A stretch of DNA of 64,000 nucleotides, from the NCBI RefSeq assembly GCF_058153355.1, contig NZ_CM177019.1; one strand, written 5' to 3'. Every line of letters starts with the position of its first letter. The stretch's first letter is position 1. Below the pieces are notes generated by a model. It was not told where the DNA came from. It was given only the letters and a program-made list of their open reading frames with translations, and made no database searches. Both the position numbers and the translations under genes were made by a program. Positions 18,605 to 39,330 of this stretch are shown here, piece after piece.

Positions 18605-18770
18605 ATATTGCCGGATAAAATAAACGCCTCTGTCAGAAATGATGGGGGCGTTTTTATTTTGCGAGCCGCATTCCGGCATTTAAACGTGAATATAGCAGGG
18701 GAAATCAACAGTTATAGAATGGCGTCGGGTGCTTGAGGCTGTCTGGTGTTGAGCATTCGCGAGGTTCCAG

Positions 18771-18874
18771 ATGGACAAAAGCCCCAGGCGATATATCTAT
18801 CAACCTGAGGCTTACGTTCGAACCCAAACAATTCGAATGTTAGTCTCTTCTTTGCAGGGAGGCAAGACATGCTG
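18771..18874 (+). CDS. Mok-like leader ORF overlapping the hok start (translational coupling)
   Basis: ATG 18771 to TGA 18872-18874, overlapping the hok ATG at 18869; arrangement typical of hok/mok loci. Confidence 0.3.
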
Positions 18875-19021
18875 ACAAAATATGCCCTTGTGGCAATCAT
18901 CGTACTGTGTTGTACAGTACTGGGATTCACGCTGATGGTAGGCGACTCGTTGTGTGAGTTGAGTATCAGAGAACGTGGTATGGAGTTTAAGGCAGTTCTC
19001 GCTTACGAACCGAAGAAGTAG
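18869..19021 (+). CDS. Hok/Gef-family type I toxin (HokE-like membrane peptide)
   Basis: 50 aa [50 protein letters not shown]; close to my recollection of K-12 HokE (not checked against a database); below the ORF-track length cutoff. Confidence 0.7.
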
Positions 19022-19259
19022 CCACCACGCGGGGGTAAAACCCCGCGTATTGAATTGTGATGGTTTGGTCTCCTGCACCCTTTTTTTCATTTATATTGTT
19101 TTTGTGAATATTATGCCTGTGTTTATTATTTATATATATCACAGATGAAAATCATTGAATTATTCATAATGTAAATATTTTATTGAACGATATATATCAC
19201 AGATAATTTTTAATATATGCGTAAATATCCTTTAAGTTTTACTGAAGGATAAAAACATT

Positions 19260-20936
19260 GTGACTTTCTTTGATTTCTGGGGAAAAACCCGACGTGGCGA
19301 GAAAGAGGGTGGCGACGATTATCACCTTCTTTGCTGGCATTCGCTGGATGTAGCCGCGATAGGCTATTTAATGGTCAAAAACAACTGTTTCGGGCTGGCT
19401 GACTATTTTCGTCAATTAGGTTTCGCTGACACGGATCAGGCAGCACAATTTTTCGCCTGGTTGTTGTGCTGGCACGATACTGGAAAATTTGCCCGCTCAT
19501 TTCAGCAACTTTACCTGCACCCACAACTCAAGGTTCCGGAAGGCGCAAGAAAGAATTACGAAAAGATCTCTCATTCAACGCTGGGTTACTGGTTGTGGCA
19601 TCATTATTTAATTGAATGTGAAGAGTTGCTTCCTTCATCTTCACTCTCTTTGCGCAAACTTAAACGGGTAATAGATATGTGGATGCCCGTGACGACCGGG
19701 CATCATGGTCGGCCTCCTGACCGTATCGATGAACTGGACAACTTTCTACCTGAAGACAAAGCTGCCGCACGAGATTTTCTCCTTGAAATCAAGGTACTGT
19801 TTCCGCTCATCGAGATCCCTACATTCTGGGATGATGACGAGGGCGTTGAACTTATAAAACATCTTTCCTGGTATATATCTGCAACCGTCGTACTCGCAGA
19901 CTGGACGGGATCGTCAACGCGGTTTTTTCCACGCGTCGCACATGTAATGGATATTAAAGATTACTGGCAGAATGCTTTAGCTCAGGCTCAAAACGCATTA
20001 ACCGTCTTTCCTCCAAAAGCAGAAACCGCACCTTTCACTGGAATTAACACGCTGTTTCCTTTTATTGAGAACCCAACACCGTTACAGCAAAAGGTGCTGG
20101 ATCTGGATATCAGCCAGCCAGGACCGCAGTTGTTTATTCTGGAAGATGTGACTGGCGCAGGTAAAACAGAAGCGGCGCTTATCTTGGCGCACAGGTTGAT
20201 GTCTGCGGGGAAAGCACAGGGTTTGTTTTTTGGCCTGCCAACAATGGCAACGGCCAATGCCATGTACGATAGGCTGGTAAAAACCTAGCTTGCTTTCTAT
20301 TCGCCACAATCCCGCCCCAGCCTGGTGCTGGCACACAGCGCTCGTTCGCTAATGGATCGCTTTAACGCATCGCTGTGGTCTGGTGATTTTGTGGGGTCAG
20401 AAGAACCGGATGAACAAGCGTTCAGTCAGGGATGTGCGGCCTGGTTTGCTGACAGTAACAAGAAGGCGTTGCTGGCTGAAATTGGCGTCGGCACGCTGGA
20501 TCAGGCGATGATGGCGGTGATGCCGTTCAAACATAATAATCTGCGGCTTCTGGGGCTGAGTAACAAAATCCTGCTAGCCGATGAGATCCACGCCTGTGAC
20601 GCTTATATGTCGTGCATTCTTGAAGGGCTGATCGAGCGGCAGGCGCGTGGCGGAAACAGCGTTATTTTGCTTTCTGCTACGTTGTCTCAACAGCAGCGTG
20701 ACAAACTCGTCGCCGCCTTTGCGCGTGGTGCAGAGGGCCAGCAAGAAGCTCCGTTGCTGGAAAAAGATGATTATCCCTGGCTGACGCATGTCACGAAATC
20801 CGATGTGCATTCGCACCGGGTAGCGACGCGCAAAGACGTTGAGCGCAGCGTGAGTGTGGGTTGGCTTCATAGCGAACAAGAGTGTATTGCGCGTATCGAA
20901 TCGGCGGTAAGGTGTTCCCCGCGCCAGCGGGGATAA
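19260..20936 (+). pseudogene. cas3: cas3 (type I-E) pseudogene: in-frame TAG at 20286-20288 and 3' truncation into a CRISPR repeat
   Basis: HD-nuclease motifs (WHSLDVAA, WHDTGKF) and helicase Walker A (TGAGKTEAAL); ORFs 19260-20288 and 20325-20936 are in the same frame separated by one amber codon; the frame ends inside the first repeat; total about 557 codons versus about 890 expected. Confidence 0.75.
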
Positions 20937-21062
20937 ACCGTCGACAATGGATAAGTTGACTTCAGGTCTGGGGAGTTCCCCGCGCTAGCGGGAATAAACC
21001 GTGCAGTACGCCTGATGACAAACCAAGCATCGGGAGTTCCCCCGCGTCAGCGGGGGAACTCC
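20912..21062 (+). CRISPR. minimal type I-E CRISPR array: 3 repeats, 2 spacers of 32 bp; last repeat degenerate
   Basis: Repeats gtgttccccgcgccagcggggataaaccg (20912-20940), gagttccccgcgctagcgggaataaaccg (20973-21001), degenerate gagttcccccgcgtcagcgggggaactc (from 21034); spacers 20941-20972 and 21002-21033. Confidence 0.85.
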
Positions 21063-21083
21063 CAGCTCCCATTTTCAAACGCC

Positions 21084-31150: not shown

Positions 31151-32143
31151 ATGAGTCAGAATACGCTGAAAGTTCATGATTTAAATGAAGATGCGGAATT
31201 TGATGAGAACGGAGTTGAGGTTTTTGACGAAAAGGCCTTAGTAGAAGAGGAACCCAGTGATAACGATTTGGCCGAAGAGGAACTGTTATCGCAAGGGGCC
31301 ACACAGCGTGTGTTGGACGCGACTCAGCTTTACCTTGGTGAGATTGGTTATTCACCACTGTTAACGGCCGAAGAAGAAGTTTATTTTGCGCGTCGCGCAC
31401 TGCGAGGAGATGTTGCCTCCCGCCGCCGGATGATCGAGAGTAACTTACGTCTGGTGGTAAAAATTGCCCGCCGTTATGGCAATCGTGGTCTGGCTTTGCT
31501 GGATCTTATCGAAGAGGGCAACCTGGGGCTGATCCGCGCGGTAGAGAAGTTTGACCCGGAACGTGGTTTCCGCTTCTCAACATACGCAACCTGGTGGATT
31601 CGCCAGACGATCGAACGGGCGATTATGAACCAAACCCGTACTATTCGTTTGCCGATTCACATCGTAAAGGAGCTGAACGTTTACCTGCGAACCGCACGTG
31701 AGTTGTCCCATAAGCTGGACCACGAACCAAGTGCGGAAGAGATCGCAGAGCAGCTGGATAAGCCAGTTGATGACGTCAGCCGTATGCTTCGTCTTAACGA
31801 GCGCATTACCTCGGTAGACACCCCGCTGGGTGGAGATTCCGAAAAAGCGTTGCTGGACATCCTGGCCGATGAAAAAGAAAACGGCCCGGAAGATACCACG
31901 CAAGATGACGATATGAAACAAAGCATCGTCAAATGGCTGTTCGAACTGAACGCCAAACAGCGTGAAGTACTGGCACGTCGATTCGGTTTGCTGGGGTACG
32001 AAGCGGCAACACTGGAAGATGTAGGTCGTGAAATTGGCCTCACCCGTGAACGTGTTCGCCAGATTCAGGTTGAAGGCCTGCGCCGTTTGCGCGAAATCCT
32101 GCAAACGCAGGGGCTGAATATCGAAGCGTTGTTCCGCGAATAA
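31151..32143 (+). CDS. rpoS: RNA polymerase sigma factor RpoS (sigma-38), apparently intact
   Basis: 330 aa from [22 protein letters not shown] with no internal stop; ORF-track start 31115 is an upstream extension. Confidence 0.95.
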
Positions 32144-32157
32144 GTAAGCATCTGTTA

Positions 32158-32195
32158 GAAAGGCCAGTCTCTTATGAGGCTGGCCTTTTTCTTTT
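32158..32195 (+). terminator. rho-independent terminator of rpoS
   Basis: aggccag-tctcttatgagg-ctggcct stem-loop followed by ttttcttttg. Confidence 0.7.
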
Positions 32196-32263
32196 GTATG
32201 GGGAGTTGGTGTGTTTCGTCGCCTGGATAAGACACGTCAGCGTCCCATCCGGCAATCAACATC

Positions 32264-32671
32264 CTATTTGCTCATCATCTTGCGCACCAGCTGCATAAAC
32301 AGCTCCTGCTCTTCTCCACTCAAACGCCCCAAAAATTCCTCATCCACACTGTCGCCAATCGGTATCGCCGCAGCAAGTACCTTTTCTCCTTCGGCAGTCA
32401 GCCAGACAAAGCGTCGCCGCTTATCAGCGGTGTCATGTTCACGTCTGACTAAGCCACGATTTTCCATTCTTGCCAACATTTCTGCCAGCGTTGCTTTGGT
32501 GCTGACGGCTGCTTCCATCAGTGCCACCTGTTCGATACCAGGTTTATCAGCAATGGCGCGCATCACCGCGTACTGTGGTTTGGTCAGGTCAGGTAACTCG
32601 TGCTGCCAGCGGGCCGTATGCTGCTGAAAAAGCTGTCGTAACTGATGGAACGCTTTATTTCGTAACGCCAT
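32264..32671 (-). CDS. MarR-family transcriptional regulator, divergent from the decarboxylase operon
   Basis: 135 aa ORF; assignment by reading the translation, no domain search run. Confidence 0.75.
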   Translation of the reverse strand: MALRNKAFHQLRQLFQQHTARWQHELPDLTKPQYAVMRAIADKPGIEQVALMEAAVSTKATLAEMLARMENRGLVRREHDTADKRRRFVWLTAEGEKVLAAAIPIGDSVDEEFLGRLSGEEQELFMQLVRKMMSK

Positions 32672-32787
32672 GTAAACTCCGGGCTAATTCTCTGTCGCTA
32701 TCATAGCGGTTTTTCAGTGACGAAGAAGATGTTGTTACTTTTCAATCCTTGCCGCTGTGGAAATGAAGGAGTATGCTAATAATAACG

Positions 32788-32799
32788 TTCGTATACGAA
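32788..32799. promoter_or_regulatory. perfect 12-bp palindrome TTCGTATACGAA in the MarR/decarboxylase divergent promoter region (candidate operator)
   Basis: Self-complementary 12-mer located 19-30 bp upstream of the UbiX-like start codon. Confidence 0.3.
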
Positions 32800-32817
32800 C
32801 AATTAAGAGAGTAAGCA

Positions 32818-33411
32818 ATGAAACTGATCGTCGGGATGACAGGGGCTACCGGTGCGCCTCTTGGTGTGGCATTACTGCAAGCGCTGCGGGAGATGCCGAA
32901 TGTCGAGACTCATCTGGTGATGTCGAAGTGGGCGAAAACCACTATTGAACTGGAAACGCCTTACAGCGCTCGCGATGTTGCCGCCCTCGCTGACTTCAGC
33001 CATAACCCGGCGGATCAGGCTGCGACCATCTCTTCCGGCTCCTTTCGTACCGACGGCATGATCGTTATTCCATGCAGTATGAAAACGCTCGCCGGTATCC
33101 GCGCTGGTTACGCCGATGGTCTCGTAGGGCGCGCGGCGGACGTCGTGCTCAAAGAAGGCCGCAAACTGGTGCTGGTGCCGCGTGAAATGCCGCTTAGCAC
33201 CATCCATCTCGAAAATATGCTCGCACTTTCGCGCATGGGCGTGGCGATGGTGCCGCCGATGCCTGCCTTTTATAACCATCCCGAAACGGTAGATGACATT
33301 GTCCACCACGTGGTAGCCCGCGTGCTGGATCAATTTGGCCTCGAACATCCTCACGCCAGGCGCTGGCAAGGGTTGCCGCAGGCCCGGAATTTTTCTCAGG
33401 AGAATGAATAA
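32818..33411 (+). CDS. UbiX/Pad1-family flavin prenyltransferase (decarboxylase subunit B; EcdB-like)
   Basis: 197 aa ORF; MKLIVGMTGATGAPLG flavoprotein motif. Confidence 0.85.
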   Translation: MKLIVGMTGATGAPLGVALLQALREMPNVETHLVMSKWAKTTIELETPYSARDVAALADFSHNPADQAATISSGSFRTDGMIVIPCSMKTLAGIRAGYADGLVGRAADVVLKEGRKLVLVPREMPLSTIHLENMLALSRMGVAMVPPMPAFYNHPETVDDIVHHVVARVLDQFGLEHPHARRWQGLPQARNFSQENE

Positions 33412-34838
33412 TGGCATTTGATGATTTACGCAGCTTCTTACAGGCGCTTGATGACCACGGCCAGTTACTGAAAATCAGCGAAGAGGTGAACGCGGAACCG
33501 GATCTGGCAGCCGCTGCCAACGCCACCGGGCGTATCGGCGACGGCGCGCCCGCGCTGTGGTTTGATAATATTCGCGGCTTTATCGATGCCCGCGTGGCGA
33601 TGAACACCATCGGCTCCTGGCAGAACCACGCGATTTCCCTCGGGCTGCCACCGAACACACCGGTTAAAAAACAGATTGATGAGTTTATCCGCCGCTGGGA
33701 TAACTTTCCCATTGCCCCGGAACGCCGCGCCAATCCTGCCTGGGCGCAGAACACCGTCGATGGTGACGAGATCAACCTGTTCGATATTCTGCCACTGTTT
33801 CGTTTAAACGATGGCGATGGCGGTTTCTATCTCGACAAAGCGTGCGTGGTTTCCCGCGATCCGCTCGATCCGGATAACTTCGGCAAGCAGAACGTCGGCA
33901 TCTATCGCATGGAAGTGAAGGGTAAGCGTAAGCTCGGCCTGCAACCGGTGCCGATGCACGATATCGCCCTGCATCTGCATAAAGCGGAAGAACGTGGTGA
34001 AGATTTGCCAATTGCCATCACGCTGGGTAACGATCCGATCATCACCCTGATGGGCGCCACCCCGCTGAAATATGATCAATCGGAGTACGAAATGGCGGGC
34101 GCGCTACGCGAAAGCCCGTACCCGATCGCCACCGCCCCGCTGACCGGTTTTGATGTGCCGTGGGGTTCAGAAGTGATCCTCGAAGGGGTTATCGAAAGCC
34201 GCAAACGTGAAATCGAAGGGCCGTTCGGTGAGTTTACCGGGCACTACTCCGGTGGGCGCAACATGACCGTAGTGCGCATCGATAAAGTCTCTTACCGCAC
34301 CAAACCGATTTTTGAATCGCTCTATCTCGGTATGCCGTGGACCGAAATCGACTACCTGATGGGGCCTGCCACCTGCGTGCCGCTTTACCAGCAGTTGAAA
34401 GCCGAGTTCCCGGAAGTGCAGGCGGTGAACGCTATGTACACCCACGGCCTGCTGGCGATTATCTCCACCAAAAAACGCTATGGCGGCTTTGCCCGCGCAG
34501 TGGGCCTGCGTGCGATGACCACGCCGCACGGTCTGGGTTATGTGAAGATGGTGATTATGGTCGATGAAGACGTTGACCCGTTCAACCTGCCGCAGGTGAT
34601 GTGGGCGCTCTCGTCGAAAGTGAACCCGGCAGGGGATCTGGTGCAGTTGCCGAATATGTCAGTACTGGAACTCGACCCTGGCTCAAGCCCGGCGGGGATC
34701 ACCGATAAGCTGATTATCGACGTCACCACGCCTGTCGCCCCGGACAACCGTGGTCACTACAGCCAGCCGGTGGTGGACTTACCGGAAACCAAAGCCTGGG
34801 CTGAAAAACTGACCGCTATGCTGGCCGCACGTAAATAA
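33411..34838 (+). CDS. UbiD-family non-oxidative aromatic acid decarboxylase (subunit C; EcdC-like)
   Basis: 475 aa ORF; assignment from recalled UbiD-family similarity. Confidence 0.85.
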   Translation: MAFDDLRSFLQALDDHGQLLKISEEVNAEPDLAAAANATGRIGDGAPALWFDNIRGFIDARVAMNTIGSWQNHAISLGLPPNTPVKKQIDEFIRRWDNFPIAPERRANPAWAQNTVDGDEINLFDILPLFRLNDGDGGFYLDKACVVSRDPLDPDNFGKQNVGIYRMEVKGKRKLGLQPVPMHDIALHLHKAEERGEDLPIAITLGNDPIITLMGATPLKYDQSEYEMAGALRESPYPIATAPLTGFDVPWGSEVILEGVIESRKREIEGPFGEFTGHYSGGRNMTVVRIDKVSYRTKPIFESLYLGMPWTEIDYLMGPATCVPLYQQLKAEFPEVQAVNAMYTHGLLAIISTKKRYGGFARAVGLRAMTTPHGLGYVKMVIMVDEDVDPFNLPQVMWALSSKVNPAGDLVQLPNMSVLELDPGSSPAGITDKLIIDVTTPVAPDNRGHYSQPVVDLPETKAWAEKLTAMLAARK

Positions 34839-34848
34839 GGAGAACAAG

Positions 34849-35085
34849 ATGATTTGTCCACGTTGTGCCGATGAAAAGATTGAAGTGATGGCGAAATCGC
34901 CGGTGAAAAATGTCTGGACGGTCTACCAGTGCCAGCATTGCCTCTATACATGGCGCGATACCGAACCGCTGCGCCGCACCAGCCGCGAACATTATCCCGA
35001 AGCGTTCCGCATGACGCAGAAAGATATTGATGACGCGCCGATGGTGCCGAGCATTCCGCCGCTGCTGGCGGCAGATAAGCGCTAA
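34849..35085 (+). CDS. small zinc-ribbon subunit of the hydroxyarylic acid decarboxylase (subunit D; EcdD-like)
   Basis: 78 aa ORF with CPRC...CQHC cysteine pairs, immediately downstream of the UbiD-like gene. Confidence 0.7.
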   Translation: MICPRCADEKIEVMAKSPVKNVWTVYQCQHCLYTWRDTEPLRRTSREHYPEAFRMTQKDIDDAPMVPSIPPLLAADKR

Positions 35086-35126
35086 TAAAAAAGGGCCGGG
35101 TAGAGGCTTTGCTTTACCCGGCCACG

Positions 35127-35783
35127 TTATTTGATTTTATAAAACGACAGCCGCCCGCTTTTCGGCGATCCGGTATCAATATAAATCTGGTTTGCGAACG
35201 TCTGGATGTTATCAAACATCATATGACCGAAGATAAAGCAGTCGGCGCCGTTTATTTCCTGTAACTCGCCTTTGAGCGATTTCAGTACGCGATCAACAGG
35301 CCAGAGCAATTCTCTCTCCGCTATTTCTTTGCCAAAGAGATATTCATTCCCCGGATAATCTGCATGCGCGATGACATATTTTATTATGTCGTTAGTGATT
35401 TCAACAATATGCGGAAGATTATGAAAACGTAGCAACAGGTCTATTGCTTCTTTTTGTTCCGTATCACTTAACTCAAAGAACCAGTCGCCACCGCTGGCAA
35501 GCCACATATTGCCATCGCCGGTCGCGAACGCATCCAATGCCATCGCTTCATGGTTGCCTTTAACCGATGTAAACCAGGGCTGGTTTAGCAGGCGCAGCAC
35601 GTTAAGACTCTCCGGCCCACGATCAATATTATCGCCGACAGAAATAAGTAAGTCGGTTTCAGGACAAAAAGATAATTGGTGCAGGCGGGATTGCAATAAT
35701 TGATAATCTCCATGAATGTCACCTACCACCCAGATATGGCGATAATGAGTGGTTTCAATTTTACGATAACGAATATCTGGCAT
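35127..35783 (-). CDS. pphB: serine/threonine protein phosphatase 2
   Basis: 218 aa from MPDIRYRKIET; GDIHGD and GNHE metallophosphatase motifs; ORF-track start 35921 is an upstream extension. Confidence 0.85.
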   Translation of the reverse strand: MPDIRYRKIETTHYRHIWVVGDIHGDYQLLQSRLHQLSFCPETDLLISVGDNIDRGPESLNVLRLLNQPWFTSVKGNHEAMALDAFATGDGNMWLASGGDWFFELSDTEQKEAIDLLLRFHNLPHIVEITNDIIKYVIAHADYPGNEYLFGKEIAERELLWPVDRVLKSLKGELQEINGADCFIFGHMMFDNIQTFANQIYIDTGSPKSGRLSFYKIK

Positions 35784-35805
35784 TGATCGCGCTCCGTAAA
35801 AAGAA

Positions 35806-36669
35806 TTATTCCGGCTTATGAAACAGAATGGTGTTAATCTCGACATCAGTGATTGCGCCAGCTGCTTCTGCTTTATGTAACCAGTATAGCGCTTTGTCTT
35901 TATCCACACCGTTCTCATCAATGCCCCAGGCGTAAATGCGGCCTAAGGATATTTGGGCATGAGGTAAATCTTGTGCGGCAGCTTTTTCAAACCAGTATTT
36001 AGCCTGTTTAATATCAGCGGGTACACCATCGCCCGTTAAAAAGAGCGTACCATAATTATACTGACCAATTTTGTCGCCTTTTTCTGCCGCAAACTTAAGA
36101 TATGTCGCAGCCTGGAGATAATTCTTTTCCTCGGCTGCGAGGAGCCCTAAATTAGCATGTGCAATGGGGTTTCCCTTTTGCGCCGCTTTAACGAGCCAGG
36201 ATTTTGCTTTATCGATATCATGGAACTTCTCTGGACCAAACTGATAGATATTGGCACAGTTTATCTGTGCCTGAAGATTTCCCTGTCTGGCTGATTTCTC
36301 ATACCAGTGAATGGCATTCTGGTAATCCGGCGGTGTGTCTTCATCTCCCTGATGATATAAAAGCCCGACATAAAATTGCGCAATGTCATCTCCCTGACTG
36401 GCTGCCAGATTAAACCAGTAAAATGCTTTATCGCGGTTTTTAACCCCCGTTACCCCTTCCTGGTAAACAATTCCCAATCCTTTTTGCGCAGATTTATCGC
36501 CGCCTTGTGCCCTTGCGATGATATTTTTCAGGTTTTCCTGTTTGTTTTTAGAATAACGTTGTTCAGCCTGGATAAGATCATCAAGCGAGGGTTCTTTGGC
36601 ACAATAACCTGTAAGAGGAAAATGCAAAATTAGTAGAGTAAATAAAATTAACTTTTTCATACATTCCAT
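35806..36669 (-). CDS. Sel1-repeat (TPR-like) secreted protein
   Basis: 287 aa ORF with signal peptide and repeated Sel1-type motifs (A..Y/W..A..G...AQ..LG..Y..G); not recalled at this position in K-12. Confidence 0.7.
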   Translation of the reverse strand: MECMKKLILFTLLILHFPLTGYCAKEPSLDDLIQAEQRYSKNKQENLKNIIARAQGGDKSAQKGLGIVYQEGVTGVKNRDKAFYWFNLAASQGDDIAQFYVGLLYHQGDEDTPPDYQNAIHWYEKSARQGNLQAQINCANIYQFGPEKFHDIDKAKSWLVKAAQKGNPIAHANLGLLAAEEKNYLQAATYLKFAAEKGDKIGQYNYGTLFLTGDGVPADIKQAKYWFEKAAAQDLPHAQISLGRIYAWGIDENGVDKDKALYWLHKAEAAGAITDVEINTILFHKPE

Positions 36670-36768
36670 GAATTAATTGTTGAGTCCTGATTTTAATTAT
36701 ACTCCATCTGTTATTGAGCCAATAATAATTAATAATCCCCGATGGGAAGGCCATCGGGAATTATGCCA

Positions 36769-39330
36769 TTACAGCAAACTCTTCAAGCGATAAATCCACT
36801 CCAGCGCCTGACGCGGAGTCAGTGAATCCGGGTCGAGATTTTCCAGTGCTTCGACCGCTGGCGAGGTTTCTTCCGGTACTGACAGCAAAGACATTTGCGT
36901 ACCATCCACTTGCGTAGCGGCGGCGTTCGGCGAAATGCTTTCCAGTTCACGCAGTTTTTGCCGTGCGCGCTTAATAACCTCTTTTGGCACGCCCGCCAGA
37001 GCAGCAACCGCCAGGCCGTAACTTTTGCTCGCCGCGCCATCCTGCACGCTATGCATAAAGGCAATGGTATCACCGTGCTCCAGCGCATCAAGATGCACGT
37101 TGGCGACGCCTTCCATTTTCTCCGGCAGTTGAGTCAGTTCAAAGTAGTGGGTAGCAAACAACGTCAACGCTTTAATCTTATTCGCCAGATTTTCAGCGCA
37201 CGCCCATGCCAGCGACAGACCATCGTAAGTGGACGTTCCGCGCCCAATCTCATCCATCAACACCAGGCTGTACTCCGTGGCGTTATGCAGAATATTAGCG
37301 GTTTCGGTCATCTCCACCATAAAGGTTGAACGCCCGGATGCCAGATCGTCAGCCGCGCCCACACGGGTAAAGATACGGTCAATCGGGCCAATCTCGACTT
37401 TTTGCGCCGGTACGTAGCTGCCGATATAGGCCATCAGCGCAATCAGTGCGGTCTGGCGCATATAGGTACTTTTACCGCCCATGTTCGGACCGGTGATGAT
37501 CAACATGCGACGCTGCGGCGACAGGTTCAGCGGGTTAGCGATAAACGGCTCATTCAGTACCTGTTCAACCACCGGATGGCGACCTTCGGTAATGCGAATG
37601 CCCGGTTTATCAATGAAGGTCGGGCAGGTGTAGTTCAGGGTATAGGCCCGTTCCGCCAGGTTTACCAGTACGTCGAGTTCTGCCAGTGCGCTCGCGCTCT
37701 GTTGCAACGCTTCCAGATGCGGCAACAACAGGTCGAACAACTCTTCATAAAGCTGTTTTTCCAGTGCCAGCGCTTTACCTTTCGAGGTGAGTACTTTGTC
37801 TTCATACTCTTTTAGCTCTGGAATAATGTAGCGTTCGGCGTTTTTCAGCGTCTGGCGACGCATATAGTTGATGGGTGCCAGATGGCTTTGTCCACGGCTA
37901 ATCTGAATGTAATAACCATGCACCGCGTTAAAGCCGACTTTCAGCGTGTCCAGGCCGGTACGTTCACGCTCGCGAACTTCCAGACGCTCCAGATAATCTG
38001 TCGCGCCGTCAGCCAGCGCTCGCCACTCATCCAGCTCTTCGTTATAGCCTGATGCGATAACACCACCGTCGCGTACCAGCACCGGCGGTGTGTCGATGAT
38101 TGCTCGCTCCAGCAGATCGCGCAGCTCTGCAAACTCGCCCATTTTCTCACGCAGCGCCTGTACCGGTGCACTAGCGACATTTTCTAACTGCGCACGCAGC
38201 TCCGGCAGTTGCTGGAAAGCGTGACGCATACGGGCCAGATCGCGTGGGCGGGCAGTCCGTAAAGCCAGACGTGCCAGAATACGTTCCAGGTCGCCGACCT
38301 GACGCAGTACCGGCTGCAGCTCAGCGGTGAAATCCTGCAATGCGCCAATAGTTTGCTGGCGCTCAAGCAACACGCGGGTATCGCGCACTGGCATATGCAG
38401 CCAGCGTTTCAGCATTCGACTCCCCATCGGCGTTACAGTGCAGTCGAGCACGGAAGCCAGCGTGTTTTCCGCACCGCCCGCCAGGTTCTGGGTAATTTCC
38501 AGGTTACGACGCGTCGCGGCATCCATAATGATGCTGTCCTGCTCACGTTCCATAGTGATAGAACGAATATGCGGCAGAGTCGTACGTTGAGTATCTTTCG
38601 CATACTGCAACAGACAACCGGCGGCACAAAGTCCGCGCGGCGCGTTCTCGACGCCAAAACCGACCAGATCGCGAGTGCCAAATTGTAGATTCAACTGCTG
38701 GCGCGCGGTGTCGATTTCAAACTCCCACAGCGGGCGACGGCGCAAGCCGCGACGACCTTCAATCAGCGACATTTCAGCAAAATCTTCTGCATACAGCAGT
38801 TCCGCCGGATTAGTGCGTTGCAGTTCTGCCGCCATCGTTTCGCGGTCAGCCGGTTCGCTCAGGCGAAAACGACCAGAACTGATATCCAGCGTCGCATAGC
38901 CGAATCCTTTGCTGTCCTGCCAGATAGCAGCCAGCAGGTTGTCCTGACGTTCCTGCAACAGCGCTTCATCGCTGATGGTGCCCGGCGTAACGATACGCAC
39001 AACTTTGCGCTCGACCGGCCCTTTGCTGGTCGCCGGATCGCCAATCTGTTCACAAATAGCAACGGACTCGCCCTGATTCACCAGTTTGGCGAGATAGTTT
39101 TCCACCGCATGGTAGGGAATCCCCGCCATCGGGATCGGCTCTCCCGCCGAAGCGCCGCGTTTGGTCAGTGAAATATCCAGCAGTTGTGACGCACGTTTTG
39201 CGTCGTCATAAAACAGTTCGTAAAAGTCACCCATCCGGTAGAACAGCAGGATCTCGGGATGCTGGGCTTTCAGCTTGAGATACTGCTGCATCATTGGCGT
39301 ATGGGCGTCAAAATTTTCTATTGCACTCAT
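36769..39330 (-). CDS. mutS: DNA mismatch repair protein MutS, apparently intact
   Basis: 853 aa ORF; [10 protein letters not shown] Walker A. Confidence 0.95.

What the first reader, a model, noticed from the sequence alone, without database searches (positions are those of the whole stretch)
32200..35100. rpoS-mutS variable region carries a MarR regulator and a UbiX/UbiD/small-subunit decarboxylase operon
Instead of the K-12 ygbI-N genes I would expect after rpoS, this strain has a MarR-family regulator divergent from a three-gene hydroxyarylic acid decarboxylase operon (UbiX-like prenylated-FMN synthase, UbiD-like decarboxylase, zinc-ribbon small subunit). This resembles the rpoS-mutS polymorphism I recall from O157-like and other non-K-12 lineages. 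A perfect palindrome TTCGTATACGAA at 32788-32799 is a candidate operator.
Basis: partly seen in the sequence, partly recalled or inferred. Interest (0 to 1): 0.45.

Follow-up and report, generated by a model that had tools for sequence, protein, structure and literature searches.

The report
Known HosA-regulated hydroxybenzoate decarboxylase operon

Summary
After rpoS (ends 32143) come a MarR-family gene (32264-32671, minus strand) and, divergent from it, three genes: a UbiX-like B subunit (32818-33411), a UbiD-like C subunit (33411-34838) and a zinc-ribbon D subunit (34849-35085). pphB, an extra Sel1-repeat gene and mutS follow. K-12 has ygbI-N at this position; O157:H7 has the same cassette.

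All of this is already described. The regulator is HosA (130 of 134 aligned residues identical to PDB 8AGA). The B subunit is 196/197 identical to E. coli O157:H7 Pad1 (PDB 1SBZ). C and D are the EcdCD/VdcCD 4-hydroxybenzoate/vanillate decarboxylase.

The palindrome extends to 14 bp, GTTCGTATACGAAC (32787-32800). This is the published HosA binding site, from which 4-hydroxybenzoate releases the protein.

New here: that box is kept with at most one mismatch in 76 of 79 related loci (the other three have two) across Enterobacterales, at 95.5% column identity against 50% for the rest of the spacer. It lies just downstream of a conserved -35/-10 pair.

The cassette is in 2380 of 5426 complete E. 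coli genomes. The catalytic and ligand-contact residues I checked are all conserved.

Verdict: already known, low interest. One minor unreported detail: many other genera have a second HosA-like box that Escherichia lacks.

The parts
31151..32143 (+). rpoS (left flank of the variable region)
   Evidence: ORF. RpoS is 100% identical at protein level to the E. coli loci and is annotated in the matching records.
32157..32190 (+). rpoS terminator hairpin. Homology to K-12 ends at 32189, just inside it.
   Evidence: Terminator scan, inverted repeat I5, breakpoint from blastn.
32264..32671 (-). hosA, the MarR-family repressor (135 aa)
   Evidence: Pfam MarR, E = 1.1e-12. 130 of 134 aligned residues identical to PDB 8AGA 'Transcriptional regulator HosA'. 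The ligand-contact residues F8, H9, R12, F15, H18, K31 and D110 named in bioRxiv 10.1101/2024.04.24.590444 are all present in the translation.
32696..32708 (-). Conserved CGCTATCATAGCG block. On the hosA strand it reads TATGAT, the likely hosA -10 element (inferred).
   Evidence: The columns cTAT.ATAgC are at least 90% conserved over 72 loci. No experiment was seen by me.
32749..32777 (+). Inferred promoter of the decarboxylase operon: -35 TTGCCG (32749-32754), a 17-nt spacer, -10 TATGCT (32772-32777)
   Evidence: Phylogenetic footprint: TTG and TA...T are at least 90% conserved in 72 loci. The consensus scan did not call it, because it matches only 8 of 12 positions.
32787..32800 (.). HosA operator, a perfect 14-bp palindrome GTTCGTATACGAAC. 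It lies 17 nt upstream of the vdcB ATG and about 10 nt downstream of the -10.
   Evidence: Sequence. Published HosA binding-site probes carry the same sequence and flanks (PMC6261655 suppl. table S1). At most 1 mismatch in 76 of 79 related loci, 2 in the other three. 95.5% column identity against 49.7% for the rest of the spacer.
32805..32811 (+). Ribosome-binding site AAGAGAG of vdcB
   Evidence: Read directly from the sequence.
32818..33411 (+). B subunit (vdcB/ecdB/pad1/kpdB): UbiX-family flavin prenyltransferase that makes prenylated FMN
   Evidence: Pfam Flavoprotein, 1.9e-44. NCBIfam VdcB 312.2 bits against a cut-off of 290. 196/197 identical to PDB 1SBZ.
33411..34838 (+). C subunit (vdcC/ecdC/yclC/kpdC): UbiD-family, prFMN-dependent reversible decarboxylase
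   Evidence: Pfam UbiD_N, UbiD and UbiD_C. NCBIfam VdcC 786.7 bits against 650. E = 1.3e-159 to ShVdcC, PDB 7AE4. N161, R166, H183, E225, E269, E274, H345 and Y377 are present.
34849..35085 (+). D subunit (vdcD/ecdD/kpdD): zinc-ribbon partner of C
   Evidence: NCBIfam VdcD 121.3 bits against 30. Matches ShdD in PDB 7AE4. Cys3, 6, 28, 31. Proline-rich tail VPSIPPL.
35094..35123 (+). Terminator hairpin between the convergent vdcD and pphB genes
   Evidence: Terminator scan: 12 pairs, 8 of them G-C. Inverted repeat I7.
35127..35783 (-). pphB, a serine/threonine phosphatase (right flank; divergent allele)
   Evidence: NCBIfam PRK09968 453 bits, match starting at ORF residue 47. 85.7% nt identity to K-12 pphB.
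35806..36669 (-). Sel1/TPR-repeat protein gene. It is an extra module of the variable region and not part of the decarboxylase system.
   Evidence: Pfam Sel1, 9.7e-43. Absent from K-12 and O157:H7. Annotated in strain 2020CK-00188.
36769..39330 (-). mutS (right boundary)
   Evidence: ORF. 99-100% protein identity to E. coli MutS.

Best explanation
This is the HosA / non-oxidative hydroxyarylic acid decarboxylase (HAD; EcdBCD = VdcBCD = KpdBCD) module, at its usual place between rpoS and mutS, in the O157:H7-type arrangement.

Mechanism:
1. A HosA dimer (MarR family) binds the 14-bp palindrome GTTCGTATACGAAC. The box sits just downstream of the operon's -10 element, around the transcription start, and blocks RNA polymerase.
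2. 4-hydroxybenzoate binds at the HosA dimer interface and releases the protein from DNA, which induces B-C-D.
3. B (UbiX-type) prenylates reduced FMN to make prFMN.
4. C (UbiD-type), held in its active form by the zinc-ribbon D subunit, uses prFMN to decarboxylate 4-hydroxybenzoate to phenol and vanillate to guaiacol. The reaction is reversible.

Basis of each step:
- Shown here: gene content, order, intactness, orthology, conserved residues, operator conservation and position.
- Taken from published work on near-identical proteins: HosA binding to this site, release by 4-HBA, repression of the operon, the enzyme's substrates, and the need for D.
- Inferred: the exact promoter hexamers and the start site in this strain.
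For: Gene order and ORFs. Family assignments above curated cut-offs; Pfam.

HosA: 130 of 134 aligned residues identical to PDB 8AGA, and the ligand contacts F8/H9/R12/F15/H18/K31/D110 are all kept. B: 196/197 identical to PDB 1SBZ. C: full-length match to ShVdcC, E = 1.3e-159. It keeps ShVdcC E273/E278 (here E269/E274), the N/R of NVGxYR (N161, R166), H183, E225, and the substrate-positioning H349/Y381 (here H345/Y377). D: four zinc cysteines.

Operator: HosA from E. coli UMN026 binds a 14-bp palindromic site and 4-HBA dissociates it (PMC6261655). The probe sequences ...AATAATAAC-GTTCGTATACGAAC-AATTAAGAGA... match window 32778-32810. Repression of the HAD operon, autorepression and a site downstream of the start site are attributed to Roy & Ranjan 2016 (summarised in bioRxiv 10.1101/2024.04.24.590444).

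Enzyme: recombinant E. coli O157:H7 EcdCD is listed under '4-hydroxybenzoate decarboxylases' with two accepted substrates, the same two compound codes as B. subtilis BsdBCD (PMC6644310; I did not resolve the codes to compound names). VdcD is strictly required for VdcC activity (PMC8379154).

Box columns are 95.5% identical against 49.7% for the rest of the spacer. A conserved TTG-17 nt-TA...T promoter lies just upstream.
Against: Nothing contradicts it. The limits are these:
- No experiment exists on this strain's own alleles. Its DNA is only about 93-95% identical to the studied strains, although the proteins are 95-100% identical.
- The primary paper (Roy & Ranjan 2016) is not in the held library, so start-site and repression data come second-hand.
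- The simple sigma-70 scan called no promoter in the spacer.
- HosA was first described as affecting motility in EPEC. I recall this from memory and from the preprint's introduction. It may therefore have targets beyond this operon.
Confidence: 0.93

Rival explanations
1. The palindrome is not a protein-binding site. It would be a chance inverted repeat, or a small RNA hairpin or attenuator in the 5' leader of the operon.
For: Perfect 12- and 14-bp palindromes occur at about the chance rate in this window (12 and 3). The terminator-like scan flags 32786-32801 on the minus strand as a weak hairpin followed by T's.
Against: The published EMSA and BLI work used this very sequence with HosA. The two 5-bp arms are 96-100% conserved across 72 aligned loci, and variation is concentrated in the central four bases. 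The one arm change seen (G1 to A in Rahnella) is not compensated. That is the pattern of sequence-specific recognition, not of base pairing. A 5-bp stem with a 4-nt loop would also be only marginally stable.
Confidence: 0.03
2. The physiological role of the C/D enzyme in this lineage is not 4-hydroxybenzoate/vanillate decarboxylation. It might act on another hydroxyaromatic acid, or work mainly in the carboxylating direction on phenol under anoxic, CO2-rich gut conditions.
For: The reaction is reversible, and substrate ranges differ among close homologues. The Enterobacter cloacae P240 enzyme lists as a tested non-substrate one of the two compounds that the E. coli O157 and Klebsiella enzymes accept (PMC6644310 table). 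No assay exists for this allele.
Against: The C subunit is 99% identical to the O157:H7 protein, which is listed among the 4-hydroxybenzoate decarboxylases. The cognate regulator responds specifically to 4-HBA and not to close analogues (PMC6694116). The substrate-positioning residues are conserved.
Confidence: 0.1
3. HosA is mainly a global regulator (motility, virulence-related genes), and its position next to the decarboxylase operon is incidental.
For: HosA was named for effects on motility in EPEC. [quoted passage not shown]
Against: hosA lies divergent from vdc(B)CD in 79 of the 80 loci recovered from other Enterobacterales, with the operator conserved in front of the operon. The operon's substrate is HosA's ligand. 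A wider regulon is not excluded, but local control is the conserved function.
Confidence: 0.05

Closest known systems
E. coli HosA / HAD operon (strain UMN026; O157:H7 slyA-pad1-yclC-yclD = EcdBCD; EPEC E2348/69 HosA structures such as PDB 8AGA; Pad1 structure PDB 1SBZ)
   Same: The gene set, order and orientation are the same, and so is the position next to rpoS. The 14-bp operator and its flanks are identical. HosA is 130/134 identical, B 196/197, C 99% and D 95%.
   Different: This is only an allelic variant. The DNA is about 93-95% identical to O157:H7 and most E. coli, and at best 98.5% identical to any complete E. coli genome. HosA has four substitutions relative to the crystallised EPEC protein, none at a ligand contact. 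An extra Sel1-repeat gene lies between pphB and mutS.
Sedimentibacter hydroxybenzoicus ShdBCD / VdcCD (PDB 7AE4, 7AE5, 7AE7) and Bacillus subtilis BsdBCD
   Same: The same B/C/D enzyme system. The C subunit aligns over its full length (E = 1.3e-159) with the catalytic Glu-Arg-Glu residues conserved. The D subunit is a zinc ribbon with the same four cysteines and a proline-rich tail.
   Different: These are distant orthologues from Firmicutes. From memory, the B. subtilis operon is controlled by the LysR-type regulator BsdA, not by a MarR protein. They have no rpoS-mutS context.
Klebsiella KpdBCD / Enterobacter EcdBCD loci
   Same: Orthologous cassettes with a HosA orthologue (70-81% identity) between rpoS and mutS. 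The main operator is the same.
   Different: These genera carry a second HosA-like box (GATCGTrTACGAAC) abutting the -35, about 57 bp upstream of the main box, and a spacer about 25 bp longer. Escherichia, including this window, has one box only.
PcaV (PDB 4FHT), a protocatechuate-responsive MarR repressor of Streptomyces
   Same: The next-best solved relative of the regulator (E = 5e-16). It too is a MarR repressor released by a hydroxybenzoate-type ligand.
   Different: The relation is only distant in sequence. From memory, PcaV controls a ring-cleavage pathway rather than a decarboxylase.
K-12 type rpoS-mutS region (ygbI-ygbN)
   Same: The flanks are the same: rpoS with its terminator on one side, pphB and mutS on the other.
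   Different: K-12 has 6.1 kb of tetronate-utilisation-type genes where this window has the 2.94-kb hosA-vdcBCD segment.

Membership tests
HosA (MarR-family repressor of the HAD operon) | Winged-helix MarR domain | tested here: met
   Pfam MarR PF01047, E = 1.1e-12, residues 29-85.
HosA (MarR-family repressor of the HAD operon) | Orthology to experimentally studied HosA | tested here: met
   130 of 134 aligned residues identical to PDB 8AGA 'Transcriptional regulator HosA', E = 2e-82.
HosA (MarR-family repressor of the HAD operon) | 4-hydroxybenzoate contact residues (F8, H9, R12, F15, H18, K31, D110 in the EPEC structures) | tested here: met
   The residues are named in bioRxiv 10.1101/2024.04.24.590444. 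All are present in the window's protein.
HosA (MarR-family repressor of the HAD operon) | Divergent from the decarboxylase operon, with the 14-bp palindromic operator in the spacer | tested here: met
   The operator is identical to the published probes and conserved in 79 loci.
HosA (MarR-family repressor of the HAD operon) | DNA binding that 4-HBA relieves; repression of the operon in vivo | not testable with these tools
   Shown for UMN026 HosA in the literature (PMC6261655 and PMC6694116; Roy & Ranjan 2016 as cited there). Not shown for this allele.
VdcB / UbiX-family flavin prenyltransferase | Flavoprotein fold and a family model score above the cut-off | tested here: met
   PF02441, 1.9e-44. 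NF041206 VdcB 312.2 bits against 290. TIGR00421 ubiX_pad 246 bits against 108.9. 196/197 identical to PDB 1SBZ.
VdcB / UbiX-family flavin prenyltransferase | Formation of prFMN from FMNH2 and dimethylallyl phosphate | not testable with these tools
   Established for UbiX/Pad1 homologues (PMC6644310). Not assayed here.
VdcC / UbiD-family prFMN-dependent decarboxylase | Three-domain UbiD architecture and a family model score above the cut-off | tested here: met
   UbiD_N, UbiD and UbiD_C. NF041204 VdcC 786.7 bits against 650, covering residues 4-469.
VdcC / UbiD-family prFMN-dependent decarboxylase | Catalytic E(D)-R-E motif and the conserved metal/prFMN-site residues | tested here: met
   R166 in NVGIYR. 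E269 and E274 in EGPFGEF, where E274 aligns with the catalytic E278 of ShVdcC. N161, H183 and E225 are conserved against ShVdcC and UbiD. The assignment of N161, H183 and E225 as metal ligands rests on my recollection of Fdc1 N168/H191/E233.
VdcC / UbiD-family prFMN-dependent decarboxylase | Substrate-positioning residues of the hydroxyarylic acid subgroup (ShVdcC H349, Y381) | tested here: met
   H345 and Y377 align with them.
VdcC / UbiD-family prFMN-dependent decarboxylase | Decarboxylation of 4-hydroxybenzoate and vanillate | not testable with these tools
   The 99%-identical O157:H7 EcdCD is listed among the 4-hydroxybenzoate decarboxylases in the PMC6644310 table.
VdcD zinc-ribbon subunit | Two CXXC knuckles (C3, C6, C28, C31) and a proline-rich C-terminal tail | tested here: met
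   Cysteines at 3, 6, 28 and 31. NF041205 121.3 bits against 30. Aligned to ShdD of PDB 7AE4. The features are defined in PMC8379154.
O157:H7-type state of the rpoS-mutS polymorphism | slyA(hosA)-pad1-yclC-yclD directly after rpoS, ygbI-N absent, pphB retained | tested here: met
   It corresponds to the EDL933-type layout (o454/ygbN-negative 'pattern I', with a mutS-yclC amplicon) in PMC4209514. It differs by the extra 945-bp Sel1 segment.

The most novel reading that the evidence does not exclude
The one feature I did not find described is a second HosA-like box. It abuts the -35 of the operon promoter in Klebsiella, Enterobacter, Kluyvera and related genera, and it is missing, along with about 25 bp of spacer, from every Escherichia locus including this window. 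If that box is a real second operator, Escherichia would have simplified an ancestral two-site repression scheme to a single roadblock site. Basal expression, inducibility or hosA autoregulation might differ as a result.
Probability: 0.4. Interest if true: 0.2.

Novelty: already known. Interest (0 to 1): 0.08.

Why it matters
It matters little as a discovery. The locus, the regulator, its operator, its inducer, the enzyme's activity and three of the four protein structures (or those of close homologues) are all published, and HosA with this operator is already used in 4-hydroxybenzoate biosensors.

The check is still useful as annotation. It gives precise names and a mechanism to four genes in a divergent Escherichia lineage. 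It shows that the cassette is intact there. It shows that the cassette and its operator hold the same rpoS-mutS position across much of the Enterobacteriaceae, so the K-12 state is one alternative among several rather than the norm. That distribution also argues against a recent preprint's claim that hosA was acquired from Shigella.

Tried and rejected
- Consensus sigma-70 scan of 32100-35200: no promoter called. The promoter proposed here matches only 8 of 12 consensus positions and rests on conservation instead.
- Rfam scan of the whole window: nothing in 32100-35200. The single hit is sok at 18727-18884.
- The second palindrome, CGCTATCATAGCG (32696-32708), considered as a second operator: rejected. 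It does not resemble the HosA half-site, and on the hosA strand it reads TATGAT, a good -10.
- Hairpin or terminator reading of the 14-bp palindrome: rejected (see rivals).
- Repeat search of the region: only short matches of chance size, apart from the two terminators.
- Antisense ORFs inside hosA, vdcB and vdcC (for example 32211-32627, 32872-33417, 33194-33775): treated as by-products of G+C-rich coding sequence. The sense-strand proteins have near-identical solved homologues.
- Fetching Roy & Ranjan 2016 by PubMed id: not held.
- Two searches for the E. coli UbiD maturation paper, to get residue numbers: both failed. I used the ShVdcC paper instead.
- Statistical rarity of the palindrome as evidence: rejected, because palindromes of 12-14 bp occur at the expected rate.
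Full report
**What is in the sequence.** The ORF list and the raw sequence show the following order:
- truD, surE, pcm, nlpD and rpoS (31151-32143, +)
- a hairpin terminator (32157-32190)
- a 135-aa gene on the minus strand (32264-32671)
- a 146-bp spacer
- three tightly packed plus-strand genes of 197 aa (32818-33411), 475 aa (33411-34838; the TAATG overlap joins it to the previous gene) and 78 aa (34849-35085)
- a second hairpin terminator (35094-35123)
- pphB (35127-35783, -), a Sel1-repeat gene (35806-36669, -) and mutS (36769-39330, -)

It extends to a perfect 14-mer, GTTCGTATACGAAC, at 32787-32800.

**Is the palindrome more than chance?** Not on symmetry alone. The window contains twelve perfect 12-bp palindromes and three of 14 bp, close to the roughly 16 and 4 expected. 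Its significance rests on other evidence, given below.

**Identity of the genes.**
- Pfam finds a MarR domain in the regulator, a Flavoprotein domain in B and all three UbiD domains in C. It finds nothing for the small D protein.
- NCBIfam places B, C and D in the models 'non-oxidative hydroxyarylic acid decarboxylases subunit B/C/D' (VdcB, VdcC, VdcD). All three score above the curated cut-offs: 312 vs 290, 787 vs 650, 121 vs 30.
- The regulator is 130/134 identical to 'Transcriptional regulator HosA' (PDB 8AGA and six further entries).
- B is 196/197 identical to the E. coli O157:H7 Pad1 structure, PDB 1SBZ.
- C matches the Sedimentibacter hydroxybenzoicus phenolic acid decarboxylase of PDB 7AE4 over its whole length (E = 1.3e-159).
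- D matches that structure's partner chain, ShdD.

[quoted passage not shown] It also states that VdcD is a zinc ribbon using C3, C6, C28 and C31, and that it is strictly required for VdcC activity.
- In the alignment these positions map to E274 (with E269), R166, H345 and Y377 of the window's protein. All are conserved.
- N161, H183 and E225 also match ShVdcC. They correspond to what I recall as the metal ligands of Fdc1.
- The D protein has cysteines at exactly 3, 6, 28 and 31.
The refutation condition is therefore not met.

**Synteny.**
- K-12 MG1655 has mutS-pphB-ygbI-ygbJ-ygbK-ygbL-ygbM-ygbN-rpoS.
- O157:H7 has mutS-pphB-D-C-B-MarR-rpoS.
- Pairwise blastn places the K-12 breakpoints at window 32189 and 35128. 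A 2.94-kb segment here replaces the 6.1-kb ygbI-N segment.
- A second, smaller difference is the 945-bp Sel1 segment (35784-36728), which both K-12 and O157:H7 lack.
- The polymorphism is well documented. PMC4209514 describes the mosaic mutS-rpoS region and lists slyA(kpdR), kpdB, kpdC(yclC) and kpdD as the content of some patterns, including EDL933 and E2348/69.
- The cassette covers at least 80% of the query in 2380 of 5426 complete E. coli genomes, always on the chromosome.

**The regulator and operator are already characterised.**
[quoted passage not shown] It used a probe containing the '14-bp TFBS of HosA' and showed by EMSA that 4-HBA dissociates the complex.
- Its supplementary primer table contains ...TAATAATAAC-GTTCGTATACGAAC-AATTAAGAGA.... 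In some rows the stored text shows an extra T. This matches window 32778-32810.
- PMC6694116 shows the response is specific to p-hydroxybenzoate over close analogues.
- A 2024 preprint summarises the primary study (Roy & Ranjan 2016) as follows: HosA autorepresses and represses the HAD operon; 4-HBA strongly induces the operon; and the palindromic site lies downstream of the transcription start, which suggests a roadblock.
- The same preprint names the ligand contacts F8, H9, R12, F15, H18, K31 and D110. All are present here.
- A review table lists recombinant E. coli O157:H7 EcdCD among the 4-hydroxybenzoate decarboxylases (PMC6644310).

I scanned one representative genome per species with the HosA protein and recovered 80 loci. 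They come from Escherichia, Citrobacter, Klebsiella, Salmonella enterica subspecies arizonae and diarizonae, Enterobacter, Kluyvera, Kosakonia, Lelliottia, Leclercia, Phytobacter, Atlantibacter, Rahnella, Erwinia, Leminorella and others.
- In 79 of the 80, hosA lies divergent from vdcBCD. In eight of those it faces vdcCD with no B gene.
- In most Enterobacteriaceae the cassette lies between rpoS and mutS.
- The 14-bp box is present with at most one mismatch in 76 of the 79 loci and with two in the remaining three, usually 15-24 nt before the first gene (one search lists every box).
- In an alignment of 72 spacers, the box columns are 95.5% identical to the window, against 49.7% for the rest of the spacer. 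The two 5-bp arms are 96-100% conserved, and variation is concentrated in the central four bases.
- The same alignment shows a conserved TTG, a 17-nt gap, then TA...T. In the window these read TTGCCG at 32749-32754 and TATGCT at 32772-32777. The box therefore starts about 10 nt after the -10, around the expected start site, as the literature describes.
- The simple consensus scan did not call this promoter, because it matches only 8 of 12 positions. The hexamers are therefore an inference.
- A conserved CTATCATAG block near hosA reads TATGAT on the hosA strand and is probably the hosA -10.

**Mechanism.** A HosA dimer sits on the box at the start of the operon and blocks transcription. 4-hydroxybenzoate binds at the dimer interface and releases it. 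B makes prFMN. The C/D complex then decarboxylates 4-hydroxybenzoate and vanillate, reversibly. Steps shown here, steps taken from the literature and steps inferred are separated in the Best explanation section.

**Novelty and score.** The only point I could not find described is a second HosA-like box (GATCGTrTACGAAC). It abuts the -35 about 57 bp upstream of the main box in 38 of 82 loci, from Klebsiella, Enterobacter, Kluyvera and others. It is absent from all Escherichia loci, whose spacer is about 25 bp shorter. This is a small comparative detail and not a feature of the window. Interest is low.

**A note on origin.** The window's flanking core genes are only about 95.3% identical to most E. 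coli. They are about 99% identical to two strains, EC42405 and 2020CK-00188, and the latter has the same gene order including the Sel1 gene. The window therefore comes from a divergent Escherichia lineage.

The wide, position-conserved distribution of the cassette argues for old residence at this site with replacement in some E. coli lineages. It argues against the recent transfer from Shigella proposed in the preprint.

Noticed in passing
window 35784-36728 (gene 35806-36669, minus strand): An extra gene for a Sel1/TPR-repeat protein sits between pphB and mutS. Its hydrophobic N-terminus looks like a signal peptide (not tested). K-12 and O157:H7 lack it. Only 192 of 5426 complete E. coli genomes cover at least 80% of 32100-36800. 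Homologues lie at the same position in Citrobacter werkmanii (65%) and a Pseudocitrobacter MAG (54%).
   Followed up: partly
L009, L011, L019-L022, L027, L029, L032-L035, L037-L040, L042-L059, L062, L063, L066: spacer between hosA and vdcB: A second HosA-like box (GATCGTrTACGAAC, with the right arm intact) lies about 57 bp upstream of the main operator and abuts the -35. It occurs in Klebsiella, Enterobacter, Kluyvera, Lelliottia, Leclercia, Pseudocitrobacter and related genera. It is absent from every Escherichia locus and from the window.
   Followed up: partly
L049, L064, L065, L068, L074, L079, L081, L083: In eight species (Pluralibacter, Superficieibacter, Cedecea, some Rahnella, Erwinia endophytica, Mangrovibacter), hosA faces vdcC directly and no vdcB lies in between. 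These would presumably rely on the housekeeping UbiX for prFMN.
   Followed up: no
window 18727-21064: A decayed type I-E CRISPR-Cas locus lies between cysH and iap. It consists of a sok/CssrC antitoxin RNA (18727-18884, 111.5 bits), an ORF with only the Cas3 HD domain (19260-20288), and three CRISPR-like repeats at 20911-21064 with 61-62 bp spacing.
   Followed up: partly
window 39400-64000 (and the window as a whole): The hyp/hyc/asc core region is only about 95.3% identical to most complete E. coli genomes and about 99% identical to strains EC42405 and 2020CK-00188. No complete genome matches the cassette above 98.5%. The source is a divergent Escherichia lineage near the species boundary.
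   Followed up: partly
window 35127-35783: The pphB allele is only 85.7% identical in DNA to K-12 pphB (86-90% at protein level against most E. coli). The neighbouring rpoS and mutS are 98% and 94% identical. Recombination in this region therefore extends into pphB.
   Followed up: no
L004 (contig DXKH01000072.1 of a 'Citrobacter sp.' MAG): A 6-kb contig binned into a Citrobacter metagenome-assembled genome carries an Escherichia-type mutS-pphB-vdcDCB-hosA segment whose HosA is 99% identical to the window's. The same MAG also has its own Citrobacter-type copy (L017). This is probably a binning contaminant.
   Followed up: no
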